From contig DATBTE010000389.1 of the NCBI GenBank assembly GCA_036559425.1, positions 1 to 50,952 on the forward strand: a DNA stretch of 50,952 nt, read 5' to 3'. The notes under the pieces are model-generated. The model was not told where the DNA came from, did not search any database, and saw only the letters and a program-made list of their open reading frames with translations. Source of the DNA: Pseudobdellovibrionaceae bacterium (lineage in GTDB: Bacteria > Bdellovibrionota > Bdellovibrionia > Bdellovibrionales > Bdellovibrionaceae). The translations under genes and the position numbers were made by a program. The stretch's first letter is position 1, and the number at the start of each line of letters is the position of its first letter. Positions 12,263 to 49,882 of the stretch are shown here, piece by piece.

Positions 12263-12338
12263 GGTCTGTTAGCGCAGTTGGTAGCGCGTTCCCTTGACAT
12301 GGGAGAGGTCACAAGTTCGAGTCTTGTACAGACCACCA
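12263..12338 (+). tRNA. tRNA-Val(GAC), host; prophage integration target
   Basis: Cloverleaf GGTCTGT/ACAGACC, D-stem GCGC, anticodon loop TT-GAC-AT, TTCGAGT T-loop, encoded CCA. Confidence 0.97.
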
Positions 12339-12341
12339 ATT
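12319..12341 (+). repeat. attL core (23 bp)
   Basis: GAGTCTTGTACAGACCACCAATT, identical to 49781-49803. Confidence 0.97.
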
Positions 12342-12350
12342 ATATTCTAC

Positions 12351-12399
12351 AAGCCTAGTAATACACGCCTTAAATGGTTTGAAATTACTAGGCTTTTTT
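12351..12399 (+). terminator. Phage-borne intrinsic terminator just inside attL
   Basis: 12-bp stem AAGCCTAGTAAT/ATTACTAGGCTT with a 21-nt loop, followed by a T run. Confidence 0.65.
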
Positions 12400-12474
12400 C
12401 ATTTTTCAGAGCCAAAAATCAGACTTCGCATATTTCGCTTCAACGCGAATATACACGTAGAGCGACGTTTTGAA

Positions 12475-12495
12475 TGTTTCGGATTTGTTTCGGGA
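12475..12495 (+). promoter_or_regulatory. Probable integrase arm-type sites (left arm)
   Basis: Tandem TGTTTCGGATT-TGTTTCGGGA; 14 bp identical to 49703-49716. Confidence 0.65.
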
Positions 12496-12575
12496 GATTT
12501 TTCCCGATTCTTCATTAAACAAAAAAATACCAATTCCAATTTATCAATCTGCACTTCCGCTGGGGGGCGGGAAAT

Positions 12576-12821
12576 ATGGGATATAAAAAAAATAACCTGA
12601 ATCATAAGTACAAATTAAACTCTCGGCTGATCTATGACCGCCTAGAAATCATGCAAAAAGATCTGGCATGGCTCGGCTCGCAAGTCGGGGTGGGCTACCA
12701 GTGCATTTTAAATAATTGCCGTAATCAGCGCATTCTTTCGCCACAGAATTTTGAGCGAATGCCCGGGGCTCTTGGTGTTTCACGCGATGAGTTACTGCTG
12801 CCTTTGGGCGGGGGTAAGTGA
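12576..12821 (+). CDS. Phage HTH (XRE-like) protein
   Basis: LAWLGSQVGVGYQCI helix-turn-helix; ALGVSRDELL terminus; overlaps the initiator start. Confidence 0.7.
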   Translation: MGYKKNNLNHKYKLNSRLIYDRLEIMQKDLAWLGSQVGVGYQCILNNCRNQRILSPQNFERMPGALGVSRDELLLPLGGGK

Positions 12822-13384
12822 TGGCGAAACGATTCACCAATACTGATAAGTGGGATGACGACTGGTTCCTGGAGTTACCACCGCTCATGAAATGCGTCTG
12901 GGAGTACCTCCGCGACAAGTGTGATGGAGGCACTGGCTTTGCCAAGGTAAGCTTCACTCGGATGAGTAGAGACATTAAGGGGAAGGTTACACGCGAAGCC
13001 TTTGATAAACATTTCAGCGAAAGAGTCCATTGGATAAACGAGGATAGGCTTTGGGTAATAGGCTACCTGTTTGAGCAGTTCAAAAATCTTTCGTCAACCA
13101 ATAAAGCACATATCAACATGGCCAAGAAGGTTCTTGCAGAAGTTGAAAAAGATGCAGTGCAAATGAACACCAAGGCTCAAAGTGCAGTCGTCAAACTTTC
13201 GACCCTCCTTAGACCCTCGATAGAGGGTCCCCTGACCCTCGACGATTCTTTAGATAAAACAGGGGAGGGTCAACAGACCCTCATAGGATATAGGTTAAAG
13301 GATAAAGGATATAGGATAAATAAAAAGAAGAGAGATGAAAATTTTGAAGTTGGCGCGGAAGTGTTTGAAGGGACAGACGTATGA
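12818..13384 (+). CDS. Phage replication initiator
   Basis: MAKRFTNTDKWDDDWFLEL N-terminus typical of phage initiators; internal iterons followed by a K/D-rich tract. Confidence 0.75.
   Translation: MMAKRFTNTDKWDDDWFLELPPLMKCVWEYLRDKCDGGTGFAKVSFTRMSRDIKGKVTREAFDKHFSERVHWINEDRLWVIGYLFEQFKNLSSTNKAHINMAKKVLAEVEKDAVQMNTKAQSAVVKLSTLLRPSIEGPLTLDDSLDKTGEGQQTLIGYRLKDKGYRINKKKRDENFEVGAEVFEGTDV
13201..13329. promoter_or_regulatory. Putative phage replication origin (iterons plus purine-rich tract)
   Basis: GACCCTC at 13201, 13212, 13234, 13276; inverted GAGGGTC at 13223, 13265; then AGGATA-type repeats. Confidence 0.7.
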
Positions 13385-13740
13385 CTCCTGCCGAATTCAA
13401 TCCCATCTACAAACGCCTAGCAGACGCATATCCGACTCAATTCGCAAGCCAGACCAAAGCCATAGCTATTGCTCAAGAAGTCAAAGGGCTTGATTCTGTG
13501 TGGTTTGAGAGGCTTGTGAATAAGATCATCGCGGCAAATGACCCATTCGTGAAACTCGGTGATTTGATTAATGCTGAAAGGCGCAGGTTGACTCAAGAAT
13601 TTACCACGAGTGAGCAGTCGGCTGATTTCGAAAGATTGCGTAGAAACTCGACAGGTATGGGCTACGAATCGGAATTAAGAAAACTCGGCGCAAATTCCCT
13701 TTGGGATGCCGTGACTAAAGCGAAAACAAAACAGGCGTAA
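13381..13740 (+). CDS. Replication accessory protein (helicase loader/adaptor-like)
   Basis: MTPAEF...LADAYP N-terminus; ATGA-coupled to the initiator. Confidence 0.5.
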   Translation: MTPAEFNPIYKRLADAYPTQFASQTKAIAIAQEVKGLDSVWFERLVNKIIAANDPFVKLGDLINAERRRLTQEFTTSEQSADFERLRRNSTGMGYESELRKLGANSLWDAVTKAKTKQA

Positions 13741-15497: not shown

Positions 15498-16034
15498 GTG
15501 AGAATAATATCAGAACAAGAGTTAAAAGACATACTCGACAAACACGGCAAGTGGTTAAGAAATGAAGAGGGTGGCGAAAGAGCTAACCTAAGCTCTGCTA
15601 ACCTAAGCTCTGCTAACCTAAGCTCTGCTGACCTAAGCTCTGCTAACCTACGCTTTGTTGACCTAAGCTTTGCTAACCTAAGCTCTGCTAACCTACGCTT
15701 TGTTGACCTAAGCTCTGCTAACCTAAGCTCTGCTAACCTACGCTCTGCTGACCTAAGCTCTGCTAACCTACGCTTTGCTGACCTAAGCTCTGCTGATCTA
15801 CGCTCTGCTGACCTACGCTCTGCGGTTGGTTTTAAATTCACTCCATTGCAAGTCGTTAACACTAAATATTTTATCACTATCTTCGACGATCACGTTGTAT
15901 GGGGTTGTCGCAAGATGACTTTCGAGGAATTGAATAAGTTTGAGCTAAAAGATTGCACATCGCAATGGGATGAATCGGAGTTTAAACTTAACAAGAAAAT
16001 AATCACTGAAATGATTCGGTATTATCGGAAATAA
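15498..16034 (+). CDS. Pentapeptide repeat protein
   Basis: 16 A(N/D)Lxx repeats after ELKDILDKHGKWL..GERA N-cap. Confidence 0.92.
   Translation: MRIISEQELKDILDKHGKWLRNEEGGERANLSSANLSSANLSSADLSSANLRFVDLSFANLSSANLRFVDLSSANLSSANLRSADLSSANLRFADLSSADLRSADLRSAVGFKFTPLQVVNTKYFITIFDDHVVWGCRKMTFEELNKFELKDCTSQWDESEFKLNKKIITEMIRYYRK
15582..15821 (+). repeat. 15-bp coding tandem repeat, 16 copies
   Basis: GCTAACCTAAGCTCT consensus; encodes the pentapeptides. Confidence 0.95.
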
Positions 16035-18377: not shown

Positions 18378-18934
18378 AATCCAAATTTGCGCTGGCTTCG
18401 GAATACATGAAAATTCAGCAAGGTTTAAATACAAGCGCGACACGATACGATGCCTTCCTCGCAGGCTTTGACTCACGTGATGCGGAGATTGCAATGCTGA
18501 AAATGAAGTGTGAATCGCTTCAGGCGAAATTCAAATCGCAAGACGACCACCTTAAAGCCATGGCGTGTGAAAGTTTTAACGATAACTTTAAGTTGATTGA
18601 ACTCGAACAAGAAAAACGTAACCTCCTCTCAACCGCAGAAACCGATCTTATGCGCATAGCTGAGTTAAGAGATGAAAATAAGTATTTGAAAGAGCGTCTG
18701 GCGCGGTATGAGGATAAGCTCCTTGGGGCGACCATGACACTCGATGAAAAGTGGGATGAGCTTAAGCCAATCGTGCTTGCGTATCTTGAGGACGGTTGGA
18801 GTAAAGAGTGCGCTTTTAAGAAAGCCGGTGTAAAGCCGTATGGGAAGATGTATCGGCTTTGCTATTTAGAGGATGAGGAATTTAAAGCGAAGGTCCGGGA
18901 AATTCTTGATTGTGGACCCGAGGGCAGGACTTGA
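18374..18934 (+). CDS. Phage coiled-coil protein with C-terminal HTH-like segment
   Basis: Heptads, then LEDGWSKECAFKKAGV. Confidence 0.65.
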   Translation: MKSKFALASEYMKIQQGLNTSATRYDAFLAGFDSRDAEIAMLKMKCESLQAKFKSQDDHLKAMACESFNDNFKLIELEQEKRNLLSTAETDLMRIAELRDENKYLKERLARYEDKLLGATMTLDEKWDELKPIVLAYLEDGWSKECAFKKAGVKPYGKMYRLCYLEDEEFKAKVREILDCGPEGRT

Positions 18935-18989
18935 ACCTGCGACCTTTAGCTTATTACACTAACGCTCTAACCAGCTGAGCTACCAAGGG
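18913..18989 (-). tRNA. Phage tRNA-like gene, anticodon AAT (Ile-type), non-canonical
   Basis: Minus strand CCCTTGG-TA-GCTC-AGCTGGTTA-GAGC-G-TTAGT-GTAATAA-GCTAA-AGGTC-GCAGG-TTCAAGT-CCTGC-CCTCGGG-T-CCA; two acceptor-stem mismatches. Confidence 0.85.
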
Positions 18990-44337: not shown

Positions 44338-44517
44338 ATGAGTGACTTGGAGCGGGCCAAAAGGCTGGCCTATGAGCTATTTTGTGAGCTTGACCGGATT
44401 GGCAAGATTATCCAAGACTCCAGAACTAGGCCTGAGGGCCGTTTCAGTGAAACCAAGGACAGACCTAAGTTGATCCTCATTAAGGGCGTTGAGGTTGACC
44501 ATAATCTGACCGAGTAG
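44338..44517 (+). CDS. Small protein antisense-overlapping cI (antirepressor candidate)
   Basis: SD AGGAG before ATG 44338; 141-bp convergent overlap with cI. Confidence 0.45.
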   Translation: MSDLERAKRLAYELFCELDRIGKIIQDSRTRPEGRFSETKDRPKLILIKGVEVDHNLTE

Positions 44518-44784
44518 CTCGGTTTTTGATTCTTGCGGTTTTTCTGTAGCAAACAGGTCCGTTTTGTCTGACATATTCACTGACTTCAAGAATTCTGTCG
44601 TCACGCCTAGAGCTTTAGCTAAATCTGGTAATATGTCGGATTTAACTATAGATCTATGTCCCTTTATTAGCCGATTTAGATTCTGATAGTTAATCTTAGC
44701 ATCTTTGGCTAATTGACGTTGAGAAATATTTTTCTCATCCATCAGCTTGAAAATTTTACTAATCACAATTTTATCAATATCCAC
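44377..44784 (-). CDS. CI-like repressor lacking an S24 peptidase domain
   Basis: N-terminal XRE HTH (ISQRQLAKDAKINYQNLNRL..LAKALGVT); divergent from cro. Confidence 0.85.
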   Translation of the reverse strand: MDIDKIVISKIFKLMDEKNISQRQLAKDAKINYQNLNRLIKGHRSIVKSDILPDLAKALGVTTEFLKSVNMSDKTDLFATEKPQESKTELLGQIMVNLNALNEDQLRSVLGFTETALRPSSGVLDNLANPVKLTK

Positions 44785-44792
44785 GCTTACTT

Positions 44793-44875
44793 ATCCTAAC
44801 ATTACTACGCGTCAAACGAGTATTTGGTGTTATGGCTAATATTTGTTGACAGTATTTCGAATTATGGCTAATACT
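44793..44875. promoter_or_regulatory. cI/cro divergent promoter-operator region
   Basis: AGTATTT-N4-TTATGGCTAATA at 44819 and 44851; TTGACA at 44846; minus-strand extended -10 TGTTAGGAT at 44801-44793. Confidence 0.75.
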
Positions 44876-44892
44876 CATTAGCAGAGGTAGCG

Positions 44893-45087
44893 ATGAATTT
44901 GAGTAGAATTAGAGACGAAATTGATAAAAGGGGCATAAAGCACCGATGGCTGGCAAAGCAAATAGGTGTGCACCCAACGACTTTAAGTCGCTTCCTTTGT
45001 GGAAAAATAGGGTTGGCAGAAGAAGCTCAAGAGAAGCTCTTCCGAATTCTAAAACTAAAACCAGAGGACGTAACTAAAGTCTCCTGA
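44893..45087 (+). CDS. Cro-like HTH protein
   Basis: GIKHRWLAKQIGVHPTTLSRFLCG; SD GAGGT. Confidence 0.85.
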   Translation: MNLSRIRDEIDKRGIKHRWLAKQIGVHPTTLSRFLCGKIGLAEEAQEKLFRILKLKPEDVTKVS

Positions 45088-45665: not shown

Positions 45666-46625
45666 ATGAGCAACATCACTCTTTTCGAAAAAACAAAGTC
45701 ACTCATTCATGCGCAGGCCAAGAAATTTCTTGAGCTTGCAAAATCCCATAAGGCCGTAAATTTTGAACAGGAAGCAAGCTTTGCACTTCAGGCTTTGCAG
45801 GCAAATAATTTTCTAGCATCCACGGCGGCAAATAATCCTAACTCTTTGATTGATGCTATTCACAATGTGGCAAGCATCGGTCTCTCTTTAAACCCAGCTT
45901 TGAAGCACGCTTACTTAGTCCCTCGAGACGGCAAAGTTTGTCTGGATTTTGATTATCGAGGTCTGGCTCACCTGTCCTATGAATCGGGTGCTGTGAAGTT
46001 TGTGCAGGCTGAAATCGTTTATGAAAACGACAGGTTTGTGCTACGCGGGCGCGGACAAGAACCAATTCACGAGCGTGACCCCTTTAGTCAAGATCGTGGA
46101 GGAGTTAGAGGTGCATATACTATTGCTAAGACAGTTGATGGTGATTTTTTGGTTGAGACAATGACTATTGCTGAGATCTACGCGATTCGCAACAATACGC
46201 AGGCCTACAAAGCTTTTCTAGATAAAAAAACGAAGTCTTGCCCTTGGGTTTCGCACGAAGGGGAAATGATCAAAAAAACCGTTATTCGCAGGGCCTCGAA
46301 AATGTGGCCTAAATCAAATGCCGGGCGGTTTGAAAAGGCCATGCAGGTTCAAGATGAAGTTGAAATGATTGACGTCACTCCGCAAAGCAAAGAACCAGAA
46401 AAGCCAGATGAATCACCAAAGAAACTTGAAGAAATCAGGCAGCTTTTGACTGCGATTGATCGCTCAGAGGAGAAGTATCTTGGACATCTTGAGCGCGTGC
46501 ATAAACGCGATTTAAAGACCTTGGAAGATCTTTCAATGGCTGAAATTGAACAAGCATTAATTGAACTTTATCAAATTTCATCAAAGGCAAATAAAAAACC
46601 GGAGAATAAAAATGAAGTCGCTTAA
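45666..46625 (+). CDS. recT: RecT-family single-strand annealing protein
   Basis: GLSLNP..AYLVP..DYRGL; VYEND.F; W...EM.KKTVIRR. Confidence 0.92.
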   Translation: MSNITLFEKTKSLIHAQAKKFLELAKSHKAVNFEQEASFALQALQANNFLASTAANNPNSLIDAIHNVASIGLSLNPALKHAYLVPRDGKVCLDFDYRGLAHLSYESGAVKFVQAEIVYENDRFVLRGRGQEPIHERDPFSQDRGGVRGAYTIAKTVDGDFLVETMTIAEIYAIRNNTQAYKAFLDKKTKSCPWVSHEGEMIKKTVIRRASKMWPKSNAGRFEKAMQVQDEVEMIDVTPQSKEPEKPDESPKKLEEIRQLLTAIDRSEEKYLGHLERVHKRDLKTLEDLSMAEIEQALIELYQISSKANKKPENKNEVA

Positions 46626-47328
46626 AGACGTTGAATCACAAATTAAAACTTTCCAGGATAAATTTGGCACTGACATTATGCGTGCTGAACAGGGCTCTAT
46701 GGCGTGGCTTCAAACTCGCCTGGGTGTTATCACTGCGAGTGAAGTGAGTGCTGCGGTGGCAAAAATAGGATCTGAAACCCGCAATACTTATATGTGTCAA
46801 TTGGTGGCTGAAGTAGCCACTGGCATGGTCGAGGAAATCAATTCAAAGTATATGGACTGGGGCAAGCTGAATGAAGATGCTGCCCGCTCAAGTTATGAGT
46901 TTGCAAATGACACTGTGATTGAGCAAGTAAATTTCATTTTCAAAGACGATACTTTTCGGGAAGGCGCATCTATTGACGGATTCGTAAGCGGGCAGAAAAA
47001 GCTAGTGGAAATCAAGTGCCCTTACAATCCTACAAATTATATCAAATTTATTGTGGCTGACAAAATCAAAGCCGAATACCAATGGCAATATCAGTTTCAA
47101 ATGCGAGTGACGGGTGCTGAGACCGCTGATTTCGTTCAATACGATCCACGCATGATTGTTCAACCGATTAAGGTTTTAAAAGTTGAGCGTGATGACGAAT
47201 ATCAAAAGAAGTTTGATGAATTGATTCCTGCATTTCTTCATGACATGGATTCGATGTTGAAACTAATTGGCATTGAATATGGTGATCAGTGGAAGCGCAT
47301 TGCCGAAATGACGCCTAAAATAGCATGA
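46612..47328 (+). CDS. YqaJ/lambda-exonuclease family
   Basis: EQGS..W...RLG.ITASE, WGK..E..AR, ASIDG, EIKCP, QYQFQM. Confidence 0.92.
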   Translation: MKSLKDVESQIKTFQDKFGTDIMRAEQGSMAWLQTRLGVITASEVSAAVAKIGSETRNTYMCQLVAEVATGMVEEINSKYMDWGKLNEDAARSSYEFANDTVIEQVNFIFKDDTFREGASIDGFVSGQKKLVEIKCPYNPTNYIKFIVADKIKAEYQWQYQFQMRVTGAETADFVQYDPRMIVQPIKVLKVERDDEYQKKFDELIPAFLHDMDSMLKLIGIEYGDQWKRIAEMTPKIA

Positions 47329-47510: not shown

Positions 47511-47713
47511 GCATGACTAAACTACAAACCGAAGTATTAAAATTCCACACTGATTTTGAGGCACGCTATGCGGAGTTAGAGGCGGCATACAAAGATAAGT
47601 CGTATGATCAGACTTCCTCGCTAGCGGCTGGCATTGTGGGCTTTACGAAAGCGAGAGCGGATTGGCTGAAGCGTGAAGTTGAGATTGATATTGCTTTTAG
47701 CGAGAAAGAATAG
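47507..47713 (+). CDS. Phage hypothetical protein
   Basis: SD GGAGGA; coupled. Confidence 0.65.
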   Translation: MSMTKLQTEVLKFHTDFEARYAELEAAYKDKSYDQTSSLAAGIVGFTKARADWLKREVEIDIAFSEKE

Positions 47714-47715
47714 GC

Positions 47716-47913
47716 GGTGCTCCCGATGCCAATTCGGGGGAATTTGAAGGAGTCACTCAAGCCACTGATACGCAGGTGGTCCGCGTATGGAACCCATAAT
47801 TAGCTTGGGAATTTGAGTGATTCCTTGAGATTAAAGCACCAGGAAGCCCGCTGAATTGCGGAATGGGTTCGTGAGTCGATCAAGATGATGAGACTTAGTT
47901 CAAGCGGGTTTTT
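47716..47913 (+). ncRNA. Candidate two-domain structured RNA
   Basis: 15-bp stem 47747-47761/47812-47826, outer GGTGCT/AGCACC, second junction closed by 47842-47855/47899-47913. Confidence 0.55.
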
Positions 47914-47955
47914 GGGTGTGAGCTTTATGGGATTGTAATTACAGAGGAGTGAAGT

Positions 47956-48256: not shown

Positions 48257-48412
48257 ATGGACATCATAGCAAATATATTCTGTTTCATAATCGGTCTTGC
48301 GGCGGCGGTTTGTTACTATCATCCGAGAATTCGGGTGTTTGAAGTTGTGGTTGAGGATTTGATAATTAGAAATAGCTTGAGAGAGATGAAAGGGAAGAAT
48401 GAAAAAAACTAA
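48257..48412 (+). CDS. Small membrane protein (51 aa)
   Basis: SD GGGGG; N-terminal TM; overlaps xis. Confidence 0.5.
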   Translation: MDIIANIFCFIIGLAAAVCYYHPRIRVFEVVVEDLIIRNSLREMKGKNEKN

Positions 48413-48581
48413 ATGGATCACAACGAAAGCAGCGGGTGAAGAAATCGGGCGTACTGCCAGGACTATCCAAGATTATTGCAAAGCCGGACGTGTTCAATGC
48501 GCTCGCTTTGGCCGATACTACATGATTGACAGTAAATCATGGGAGGAATTCAAGGCCCGGCATATAATTAAAGCATCGTAG
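48399..48581 (+). CDS. xis: Excisionase-like MerR/HTH_17 protein
   Basis: WITTKAAGEEIGRTARTIQDYCKAGRV..RFGRYYMI; immediately before int. Confidence 0.8.
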   Translation: MKKTKWITTKAAGEEIGRTARTIQDYCKAGRVQCARFGRYYMIDSKSWEEFKARHIIKAS

Positions 48582-48584
48582 GTT

Positions 48585-49685
48585 ATGGCAAATTCAAAGC
48601 TCAAAAAGTTCAAAGACAAAAAAGGGAATGAATATCCTTATCTTTTTATCGACGAAAAGACCGGGGAATTCTATGCCGTGAAACGAATTCACTTGGCCAT
48701 TAAAAAGAAACCTCTCGGCAAAGAATTCACAAAAGCGCGGTCTCAGGTTTTGACCGCAATCCAAGAAATGATGCATGAGAAACCTAAAAAAGTAGGCTCT
48801 GCGCTCATTAAAGATTTCTATGAAATAATGCTCGCTGAAAAAAAAGCCATGTCGATAAAAGAGTCAACGCTTCGGCGCATGGATACTGTTTGGCGAAATA
48901 ACATTGAACCTTATTGGCAATATTTGACTCCTGAGGAAGTCGATCAAGATCAAGTTACAAAATTCATGACCTGGCATCGACGAAATAAGCCCGGGGTTCA
49001 ATTCTCAAATACGTTTAAATATCTGGGCAATATCTTTCAAGTCATGGTCGATCGAGACCATTTAAGCCCGGGGAAGCGTCCGAAACTTATTATCCCAAAA
49101 GATGAGCAAGCCCATCACGACAAAGACAAAGGCCGCTACATTACCGACAAAGAGATTACGGCCGTACTTGAAAAGGCCGATGACGTCACTTACTTGATGA
49201 TTCGAATTGCTCATATTTGTGGCAATCGAAAAATGGAGATTGGATCACTCGAAAAAGAGCGGGTGATTTCGTCGGGCAAGCATTACGTGATCGTATTTGA
49301 TACCGATGACACAAAGACCGGCATGGCCCGGGAGGTTCCGCTTCCCAAGGATCTGACCGAGAAAATTGCCGCTCAAATTGCATCAAGCAAATCAAAGTTT
49401 CTATTTCCCATGCATTCTGATCCGGAGCGCCACGTTTACCCGAAGGTTATTGATGACGGTTGGGATGCTGCCAAGGCCGCCGCTAAAATAAAAGGCCGCA
49501 TGAGGTTCCACGACCTTCGTCATACCGCTGCCAGAAACTTCGCAAGTGCTAATGTGAATCCAATTATTGCCTGCACAATTTTAGGGATGAGCCTTGCGAC
49601 ATATCAAAAAGTTTATTGCAAACTGAAGGCTTCAGACTTGATAATAGCCGTAGAGCAAAGTGCTGCCCGATTGGGGGCAGAATGA
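48585..49685 (+). CDS. int: Tyrosine integrase
   Basis: GNRKMEI (R), TKTG (K), HDLRH, ILGM, VY; adjacent to attR. Confidence 0.93.
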   Translation: MANSKLKKFKDKKGNEYPYLFIDEKTGEFYAVKRIHLAIKKKPLGKEFTKARSQVLTAIQEMMHEKPKKVGSALIKDFYEIMLAEKKAMSIKESTLRRMDTVWRNNIEPYWQYLTPEEVDQDQVTKFMTWHRRNKPGVQFSNTFKYLGNIFQVMVDRDHLSPGKRPKLIIPKDEQAHHDKDKGRYITDKEITAVLEKADDVTYLMIRIAHICGNRKMEIGSLEKERVISSGKHYVIVFDTDDTKTGMAREVPLPKDLTEKIAAQIASSKSKFLFPMHSDPERHVYPKVIDDGWDAAKAAAKIKGRMRFHDLRHTAARNFASANVNPIIACTILGMSLATYQKVYCKLKASDLIIAVEQSAARLGAE

Positions 49686-49882
49686 GTCAAAAAGCTCTGT
49701 CTTGTTTCGGATTTGTACCGGATTTAATAGCCGGATTCTTGCAAATGCGCGTAATTACACGTCTAAATCAAATTTCAAAAGAGTCTTGTACAGACCACCA
49801 ATTTTCTTCGGTTCTCTTTACTGAGGGCTACAGAAATTTCAGTGTAGAGAGAAAAAATCGTTTTTTAATGAAAATAAAATAA
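49682..49882 (+). CDS. att-spanning ORF (66 aa in the lysogen; 126 aa predicted in the excised circle)
   Basis: ATGA overlap with the int stop, GGGGG SD; crosses the att core in frame with 12319-12600. Confidence 0.4.
   Translation: MSQKALSCFGFVPDLIAGFLQMRVITRLNQISKESCTDHQFSSVLFTEGYRNFSVERKNRFLMKIK
49703..49724 (+). promoter_or_regulatory. Probable integrase arm-type sites (right arm)
   Basis: TGTTTCGGATT-TGTACCGGATT; matches 12475-12495. Confidence 0.65.
49781..49803 (+). repeat. attR core (23 bp), duplicated tRNA-Val 3' end
   Basis: Identical to 12319-12341. Confidence 0.97.

What the first reader, a model, noticed from the sequence alone, without database searches (positions are those of the whole stretch)
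49682..49803. Excision-gated switch: an ORF created only at attP links int to the replication operon across a terminator
Seen: an ATG overlapping the int stop (ATGA at 49682, GGGGG SD) reads 33 codons to the att core, entering it at GAG (49781). Joining attR to attL continues this frame through 12319-12600 with no stop, giving 126 aa (MSQKALSCFGFVPD...ISK-ESCTDHQ-LYSTSLVIHALNG-LKLLGFF...WDIKKIT). It spans the whole att region, both arm-site clusters and the 12351-12399 terminator, and stops 25 nt inside the HTH gene that heads the coupled HTH-initiator-loader operon. att regions are normally non-coding, and this one is AT-rich, so 126 open codons is unexpected. Inference: in the lysogen the terminator follows untranslated tRNA-Val and silences replication genes. 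After excision, ribosomes from the cro-recT-xis-int transcript mask it and couple into rep, so replication would wait for excision. Known analogy: attP inside the repressor gene of mycobacteriophage BPs, which works by a different mechanism.
Basis: partly seen in the sequence, partly recalled or inferred. Interest (0 to 1): 0.85.

Follow-up and report, generated by a model that had tools for sequence, protein, structure and literature searches.

The report
Translated bridge across phage attachment site
In this prophage and most related phages examined, a stop-free reading frame with no conserved protein runs from the end of the integrase gene across the integration site into the replication genes, which likely lets ribosomes carry expression over a termination signal only after the phage has cut itself out, so replication would have to wait for excision.

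Summary
Confirmed and general. Joining attR to attL gives the 126-codon frame. Of 24 integrase-att-next-gene junctions found by integrase or initiator homology, 15 have a + frame without stops over the whole gap (0.6 expected; minus strand 0). Five more stop 34-102 nt short, one starts late, three have none. Integrases are mostly 24-43% identical to the window's, at least 7 tRNA types are targeted, and all six phases relative to the tRNA core occur. The peptide is not conserved (8 synonymous vs 44 non-synonymous codons), so translation itself seems selected. The strong hairpin next to the tRNA exists in only 3 junctions, but the 100 nt after the core are C>G in 21 of 22, a Rho-site-like signature; the host has rho. 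Likely mechanism: Rho (plus the hairpin here) insulates replication genes in the lysogen, and ribosomes leaving int mask the signal after excision. No expression data. Works like Tn916's T1/canT, with translation replacing an RNA antiterminator. The scan noted similar frames on other DNA (e1-5209591, e1-6379089).

The parts
12263..12338 (+). host tRNA-Val(GAC), integration target (attL)
   Evidence: ARAGORN; Rfam
12319..12341 (+). att core, attL copy (23 nt exact)
12342..12600 (+). 3' part of the bridge frame, stop at 12598-12600; in the lysogen it has only a TTG without Shine-Dalgarno
12351..12406 (+). intrinsic-terminator-like hairpin (12351-12395) and U tract; a hairpin of different sequence lies at the same place in L003
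   Evidence: -20.5 kcal/mol, z -5.96; L003 -17.8, z -3.92
12339..12438 (+). C>G stretch after the core (20 C, 13 G), predicted Rho-loading region
   Evidence: function inferred
12475..12499 (+). distal arm-type repeat cluster (14-nt repeat shared with 49703)
   Evidence: Int binding inferred
12576..12821 (+). first gene after att, Xre/Cro-type HTH; overlapped 25 nt by the bridge frame
   Evidence: Atlas 0.95, HTH_3 clusters; no Pfam or PHROG hit
12818..13384 (+). likely replication initiator, coupled to the HTH gene
   Evidence: N-terminal domain shared with L011 and L012 proteins and used to find L214, L273; L011, L214, L273 proteins hit replication-initiation PHROGs; Atlas
13381..13740 (+). 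gene coupled to the initiator; 'loader' label unverified
   Evidence: no hit
44377..44784 (-). CI-like repressor
44846..45087 (+). promoter-like site (44846-44875) and Cro-like gene (44893-45087) heading the rightward early genes
   Evidence: one transcript to int is inferred
45666..47328 (+). RecT and YqaJ exonuclease genes
48399..48581 (+). excisionase-like HTH gene
   Evidence: phrog_66 E 6e-4
48585..49685 (+). tyrosine integrase
   Evidence: PF00589, phrog_1
49682..49803 (+). 5' part of the bridge frame: ATGA overlap with int stop, proximal arm repeats (49703-49716), 33 codons to the core
49781..49803 (+). att core, attR copy
   Evidence: unitig branch point at 49803 in run X1

Best explanation
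A stop-free frame starts on the integrase stop, crosses the whole attP and ends in the first replication-arm gene; it likely acts as a translated bridge whose ribosomes mask a termination signal just past the att core, so the replication genes would be expressed only from the excised circle. SHOWN: attP lies inside one run of co-directional genes (cro-recT-exo-xis-int | HTH-initiator), and integration puts the two halves 37 kb apart. The frame is kept open far beyond chance while its peptide drifts. The RNA just after the core is C>G, and in this phage also carries a hairpin plus U tract. INFERRED: in the lysogen, host or tRNA read-through entering attL is untranslated and is stopped by Rho and, here, the hairpin. 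After induction, Int and Xis rebuild attP, ribosomes re-initiate at the int stop, shield the C-rich RNA and run into the ribosome-binding site of the first gene. Re-integration would cut replication-gene expression again.
For: 15 of 24 junctions fully open vs 0.62 expected by dinucleotide shuffles and 0.16 by 30-nt block shuffles; minus strand 0 of 24. 7 of 14 natural intact attPs and 8 of 10 joined in silico are open; 12 of 21 without the window and the two joins whose point I had to choose. 17 of 24 have ATGA/GTGA on the int stop vs 44 of 175 generic integrases. Window vs L003: differences by codon position 23/39/27, 8 synonymous vs 44 non-synonymous codons; integrase control 81/57/196 and 133 vs 96. 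All six phases relative to the tRNA core are used. C/(C+G) steps from 0.49 to 0.68 at the core end, exceeds 0.5 in 21 of 22 (median 0.63; pre-core 0.48, int 0.45, generic loci 0.51). The host has rho. Rho needs about 60-80 nt of C-rich single-stranded RNA and is limited by ribosome shielding (PMC6144790, passages); the five short-falling frames leave only 34-102 nt bare. Five further called genes of 121-150 aa run from the same start through the core. A 37-nt unitig of the size expected for an attP junction, and phage depth 15.5 vs 5.3 on the host side, suggest the circle exists in run X1 (possible source run).
Against: No RNA, ribosome or termination data. Three of 24 junctions (L243, L286, L288) have no such frame and L213's starts 51 nt late, so it is not obligatory. 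In the independent initiator-anchored set of 6 new phages only 2 are fully open and 4 cross the core from the int stop. C>G stretches are common and not sufficient for termination (PMC6144790). A 243-nt untranslated gap upstream of xis (47712-47955) is tolerated in the same gene run, though it is highly structured. A single transcript from cro to int is not shown, and a promoter-like site lies at 48339. Five joins use ends from different contigs of draft genomes, supported only by matching cores and arm repeats.
Confidence: 0.65

Rival explanations
1. The frame works only by translational coupling: the first gene's ribosome-binding site is folded away and is opened by ribosomes arriving on the bridge, with no role for termination.
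For: Eight of the 15 open frames stop 1-26 nt into the first gene and five fuse in frame with the first gene or the initiator. Several first genes fold their G-rich Shine-Dalgarno into a hairpin.
Against: Opening energy of first-gene starts (median 8.0 kcal/mol, n=24) is not clearly above other phage genes (6.9, n=176; p=0.07). The window and L003 start regions fold no better than shuffles (z -0.67, +0.70). It does not explain the C>G step at the core.
Confidence: 0.15
2. Masking of an intrinsic hairpin terminator after the tRNA is the general mechanism.
For: Strong hairpin plus U tract right after the core in the window, L003 and L012.
Against: The scan finds no hairpin-U tract at all in 9 of 24 junctions and only weaker or distant ones in the rest. 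Ten of 22 are antisense to the tRNA. It may still hold for this phage's clade.
Confidence: 0.08
3. Read-through across att is provided by a processive antiterminator (RNA like Tn916 canT, or an N-like protein), and the open frame only protects the mRNA from decay.
For: A strongly folded 243-nt gap sits upstream of xis-int (-90.9 kcal/mol, z -4.95), where canT lies in Tn916 (PMC11658703).
Against: No Rfam match. An exact motif from it was found only in the window's own loci among 387. An antiterminator would remove the need for both a kept-open frame and its coupling to int.
Confidence: 0.07
4. The frame encodes a real protein whose full-length form exists only on the circle, as with the BPs repressor or Mx8 integrase.
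For: Gene callers call it in close relatives; about 50% identity within the window's clade.
Against: No purifying-selection pattern. Conserved residues coincide with arm, core and hairpin DNA motifs. Only 7 pairs among the 22 peptides align at E<=0.01, mostly over short shared DNA. Six phases relative to the core, lengths 67-201 aa or fused, no Pfam hit for 7 tested.
Confidence: 0.04

Closest known systems
Tn916 excision-coupled expression: Porf7, insulator terminator T1 and RNA antiterminator canT (PMC11658703; abstract, passages and Discussion read)
   Same: Promoter and xis-int lie at one end, replication genes at the other; excision rejoins them; a terminator just inside the far end insulates replication genes from host read-through.
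   Different: Tn916 is a conjugative element that uses a cis RNA antiterminator, and translation of its overlapping orf5 was shown to be unnecessary. Here a tailed phage keeps a translated frame across att itself, and the signal looks Rho-type in most members.
Mycobacteriophage BPs integration-dependent immunity (PMC4557955; abstract read)
   Same: attP lies inside a reading frame whose length changes on integration.
   Different: In BPs the product is a conserved repressor whose degradation tag is removed. Here the peptide is not conserved, and the repressor is a separate gene (44377-44784).
Myxophage Mx8/Mx9 integrase with attP inside int (PMC6070905; passages read)
   Same: Integration swaps the 3' end of a frame that crosses attP.
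   Different: Here int is complete 95 nt before the core; the split frame is a separate one that starts on the int stop.
Rho polarity and transcription-translation coupling (PMC6144790; passages read)
   Same: C>G RNA exposed without ribosomes is the substrate; translation shields it.
   Different: Here the shield would be switched on and off by site-specific recombination.

Membership tests
Tn916-type excision-coupled operon | Promoter/xis-int and replication genes at opposite ends, co-directional after excision | tested here: met
   same layout in 24 junctions
Tn916-type excision-coupled operon | Insulating terminator just inside the end that carries the replication genes | tested here: inconclusive
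   strong hairpin in 3 of 24; C>G stretch in 21 of 22; termination not measured
Tn916-type excision-coupled operon | cis RNA antiterminator independent of translation | tested here: inconclusive
   structured gap at 47712-47955, no Rfam hit; canT itself was not compared
Tn916-type excision-coupled operon | Conjugative element with relaxase and transfer genes | tested here: not met
   terminase-like and major head genes found; it is a prophage
Tn916-type excision-coupled operon | Transcript across the circle junction needed for downstream expression | not testable with these tools
   needs RT-PCR or RNA-seq after induction
BPs-type integration-dependent immunity | attP inside the repressor gene | tested here: not met
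   CI-like gene lies 5 kb away; the att-crossing frame has no HTH or other family hit
Mx8/SSV-type attP inside integrase | attP inside the int reading frame | tested here: not met
   int stops at 49685, core starts at 49781
Protein-coding gene under purifying selection | Excess of third-position and synonymous changes | tested here: not met
   23/39/27 by position, 8 vs 44 codons; int control 81/57/196 (one pair only)
Rho-dependent terminator | C>G region of about 80 nt or more, untranslated, in a host with Rho | tested here: met
   necessary, not sufficient (PMC6144790)
Rho-dependent terminator | Termination sensitive to Rho loss or bicyclomycin | not testable with these tools
   experiment needed

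The most novel reading that the evidence does not exclude
A widespread class of temperate phages hard-wires 'excise, then replicate' with a peptide-free device: a sacrificial reading frame laid over the attachment site turns a Rho terminator off only when recombination places it behind the integrase stop. It has been re-tuned in every phase, both orientations and many tRNA targets, making recombination itself the delayed-early switch in place of lambda N-type antitermination.
Probability: 0.5. Interest if true: 0.88.

Novelty: new variant of a known kind. Interest (0 to 1): 0.77.

Why it matters
Whether prophages excise before they replicate is an open question: the P22 paper's abstract start says the order was assumed without direct evidence (PMC8575938, search listing only), and replication in place drives lateral transduction. 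These phages appear to enforce the order physically, and the claim can be tested with one nonsense codon. It also shows that att regions can be under selection to stay stop-free without encoding a useful protein, so 'hypothetical proteins' called over attP may be regulatory devices. It offers a compact recombination-gated expression part for synthetic biology.

Tried and rejected
Arm-site DNA scan of viral contigs gave two chance matches (L005, L006). The metagenome and genome collection scans were swamped by a generic integrase motif; only L093 (same DNA as L008) was of use, and the rest served as controls. A phylum-wide sample found no match beyond the window's genome in 401 genomes. No cultured phage with this integrase and one distant initiator hit, not followed. 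Rows left out of the 24: duplicates (L093/L173 = L008, L205 = L206, G201 = G200); no att core or replication gene seen after int (L009, L010, L177, L289, L349, L350, L269); other end not found or not sought (G266, G196, G340, L285, L352-L356, L358). G060 has three core copies: joining at the first or third keeps the frame open, at the second it stops at 84 aa; I used the phage-proximal third. G137 stops at 43 aa if joined at the acceptor end and is open if joined at the anticodon loop; I used the loop, where the two copies stop matching. Occluded ribosome-binding site: not significant (p=0.07). Promoter depletion after the core: 3 observed vs 5.0 expected, uninformative. No RNA holder listed. 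Read evidence at attL was not obtained, so the attP junction rests on unitig length alone. Fold search of the initiator domain gave only weak winged-helix matches, including plasmid initiators, at E>=0.15; no PDB sequence match. Literature searches listed no paper describing such a frame (titles and abstract starts seen only; most subscription journals are not in the library; no supplements read).

Full report
Observation. The window holds a 37.5-kb prophage in tRNA-Val(GAC) with a 23-nt exact core at 12319 and 49781. An ATG at 49682 overlaps the integrase stop, lies 33 codons before the core and, after joining attR to attL, reads 126 codons to a stop at 12600, 25 nt inside the first gene. Shuffles open that frame in 20 of 20000 trials. 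The frame is completed rather than created at attP: the same ATG gives 66 aa at attR, and the attL half is open but has only a TTG without a Shine-Dalgarno. Upstream lie a CI-like gene, a promoter-like site, Cro-like, RecT, YqaJ, Xis-like and Int genes. Downstream lie an Xre-type HTH gene and a protein whose N-terminal domain is shared with proteins that hit replication-initiation PHROGs. The 'loader' has no support. The host is likely of the Bdellovibrionales (inferred from the title of L093) and has rho. In run X1, possibly the source, the phage unitig (depth 15.5) ends at 49803 and branches to the host side (5.3) and to a 37-nt unitig (6.4) with 7 unlike letters; 37 nt is what an attP junction gives if the word length is 31 (letters not shown).

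Conservation. Relatives were gathered by integrase homology and independently by initiator homology (80 loci, 10 with an integrase hit), never by the frame. Twenty-four distinct int-att-next-gene junctions could be read: 14 intact, 10 joined in scripts. Fifteen have a + frame with no stop over the whole 318-462 nt gap, against 0.62 expected by dinucleotide shuffles, 0.16 by block shuffles, and 0 of 24 on the minus strand. That is 7 of 14 intact and 8 of 10 joined, or 12 of 21 without the window and the two joins whose point I chose (G060, G137). Five more start at the int stop, cross the core and stop 34-102 nt before the first gene. L213 starts 51 nt late. L243, L286 and L288 have no such frame. 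Of the 15, eight stop 1-26 nt into the first gene, two 70-91 nt in, and five fuse in frame with the first gene or the initiator. ATGA or GTGA sits on the int stop in 17 of 24, against 44 of 175 generic integrases; of 42 generic loci with a tRNA-like core, 4 carry a coupled frame 150 nt past it (most of these controls are probably integrated forms, so the comparison is rough). Five more called genes of 121-150 aa follow the same path in close relatives; these are biased towards open frames and are not counted.

Not a protein. Integrases that align to the window's are 24-43% identical, apart from L003 at 74%. Targets include tRNA-Val, Leu, Pro, Arg, Cys, Glu and Ala; cores in intact viral contigs were recognised by eye. 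Twelve junctions are sense and 10 antisense to the tRNA, and all six phases occur. Between the window and L003, 92 indel-free codons differ at positions 1/2/3 by 23/39/27, with 8 synonymous and 44 non-synonymous codons; their integrases give 81/57/196 and 133 vs 96. Conserved residues match arm, core and hairpin DNA. Selection therefore appears to act on the absence of stops, not on the peptide.

What translation would overcome. The hairpin at 12351-12395 is strong (-20.5 kcal/mol, z -5.96) and has a counterpart of different sequence in L003 and a weaker one in L012, but 9 of 24 junctions have none. What 21 of 22 share is C>G in the 100 nt after the core (median C/(C+G) 0.63, vs 0.48 before the core, 0.45 in int, 0.44 in the first gene, 0.51 in 172 generic loci), with a step from 0.49 to 0.68 at the core end. 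The skew is local, so stop avoidance does not explain it. L243, which lacks the frame, is nearly unskewed (23 C, 22 G), but so is G060, which has it. C>G regions are the accepted signature of Rho loading, need about 60-80 nt, are limited by ribosome shielding, and are common and not sufficient (PMC6144790, passages). Occlusion of the first gene's ribosome-binding site is suggestive but not significant (p=0.07).

Mechanism. Shown: layout, open frame, drifting peptide, C>G step, hairpin in this clade. Inferred: in the lysogen the replication genes are cut from their promoter, and untranslated read-through entering attL is stopped by Rho and here the hairpin. After induction Int and Xis restore attP, ribosomes re-initiate at the int stop, cover the signal and reach the first gene, so replication follows excision. 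I give this 0.65, coupling alone 0.15, hairpin masking as the general rule 0.08, a separate antiterminator 0.07, a functional protein 0.04. Against it: no expression data, three to four exceptions, only 2 of 6 fully open in the initiator-anchored new phages, and an untranslated but highly structured 243-nt gap in the same gene run.

Known systems. It works like Tn916, where excision rejoins Porf7-xis-int to replication genes across the insulator T1, but Tn916 uses the RNA antiterminator canT (PMC11658703; abstract, passages, Discussion). It is not a BPs-type (PMC4557955, abstract) or Mx8-type (PMC6070905, passages) system, since att splits neither repressor nor integrase. Searches listed no description of such a frame, within a library that lacks most subscription papers; no supplements were read. 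Two unchecked notes of this scan report att-spanning frames linking int to replication genes in other genomes, and a third an integrase tail coupled to a rolling-circle Rep; these are leads, not support.

Verdict. Real, conserved and probably regulatory: a new variant of excision-coupled gene expression, interest 0.77.

Noticed in passing
window 47712-47955 (+): 243-nt untranslated gap upstream of xis-int folds into long hairpins (-90.9 kcal/mol, z -4.95), no Rfam hit; candidate cis-acting RNA in the position canT has in Tn916.
   Followed up: partly
P0079: A called gene in which the N-terminus of an Xis-like protein is fused in frame to the post-core frame: an integrase-less deletion variant that keeps translation into the replication arm, or an assembly artefact.
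   Followed up: no
G137, L380 and L376: The phage-borne half of tRNA-Ala differs from the displaced host half in the T arm, exactly where the host version has an in-frame stop in the bridge frame.
   Followed up: partly
L008 7089-7437, L213 3204-3501: The bridge is in frame with the initiator and separated from it by a single stop codon; read-through or re-initiation possible.
   Followed up: no
L214 2384-2775: A 4-codon frame on the int stop hands over by an ATGA overlap to the 126-codon bridge, a relay.
   Followed up: partly
G242:C7 199-238 kb (L181, L182): Two integrases on one contig; one sits beside an intact attP with its own bridge frame, the other at an attR in tRNA-Pro.
   Followed up: partly
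G060:C25 139300-139750 (L370): Three copies of a core-bearing repeat spaced 215 and 214 nt at the prophage end; the frame stays open through all three.
   Followed up: partly
L288, about 490-837 nt after the int stop: No frame from the int stop, but a 115-codon frame crosses an antisense tRNA-like core and ends 16 nt before the next gene.
   Followed up: no
window 18913-18989 (-): tRNA-Ile(AAT)-like gene inside the prophage, antisense to the phage genes; unusual anticodon for bacteria (recalled).
   Followed up: no
window 15541-15852: 15-nt tandem repeats inside ORF 15498-16034.
   Followed up: no
window 44819-44882: Two 32-nt direct repeats over the promoter-like site between the CI-like and Cro-like genes; likely operators.
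   Followed up: no
L177 2654-3456 (G239): tRNA-adjacent island integrase followed by a gene pair that looks like a HigB/HigA toxin-antitoxin system (by eye).
   Followed up: no
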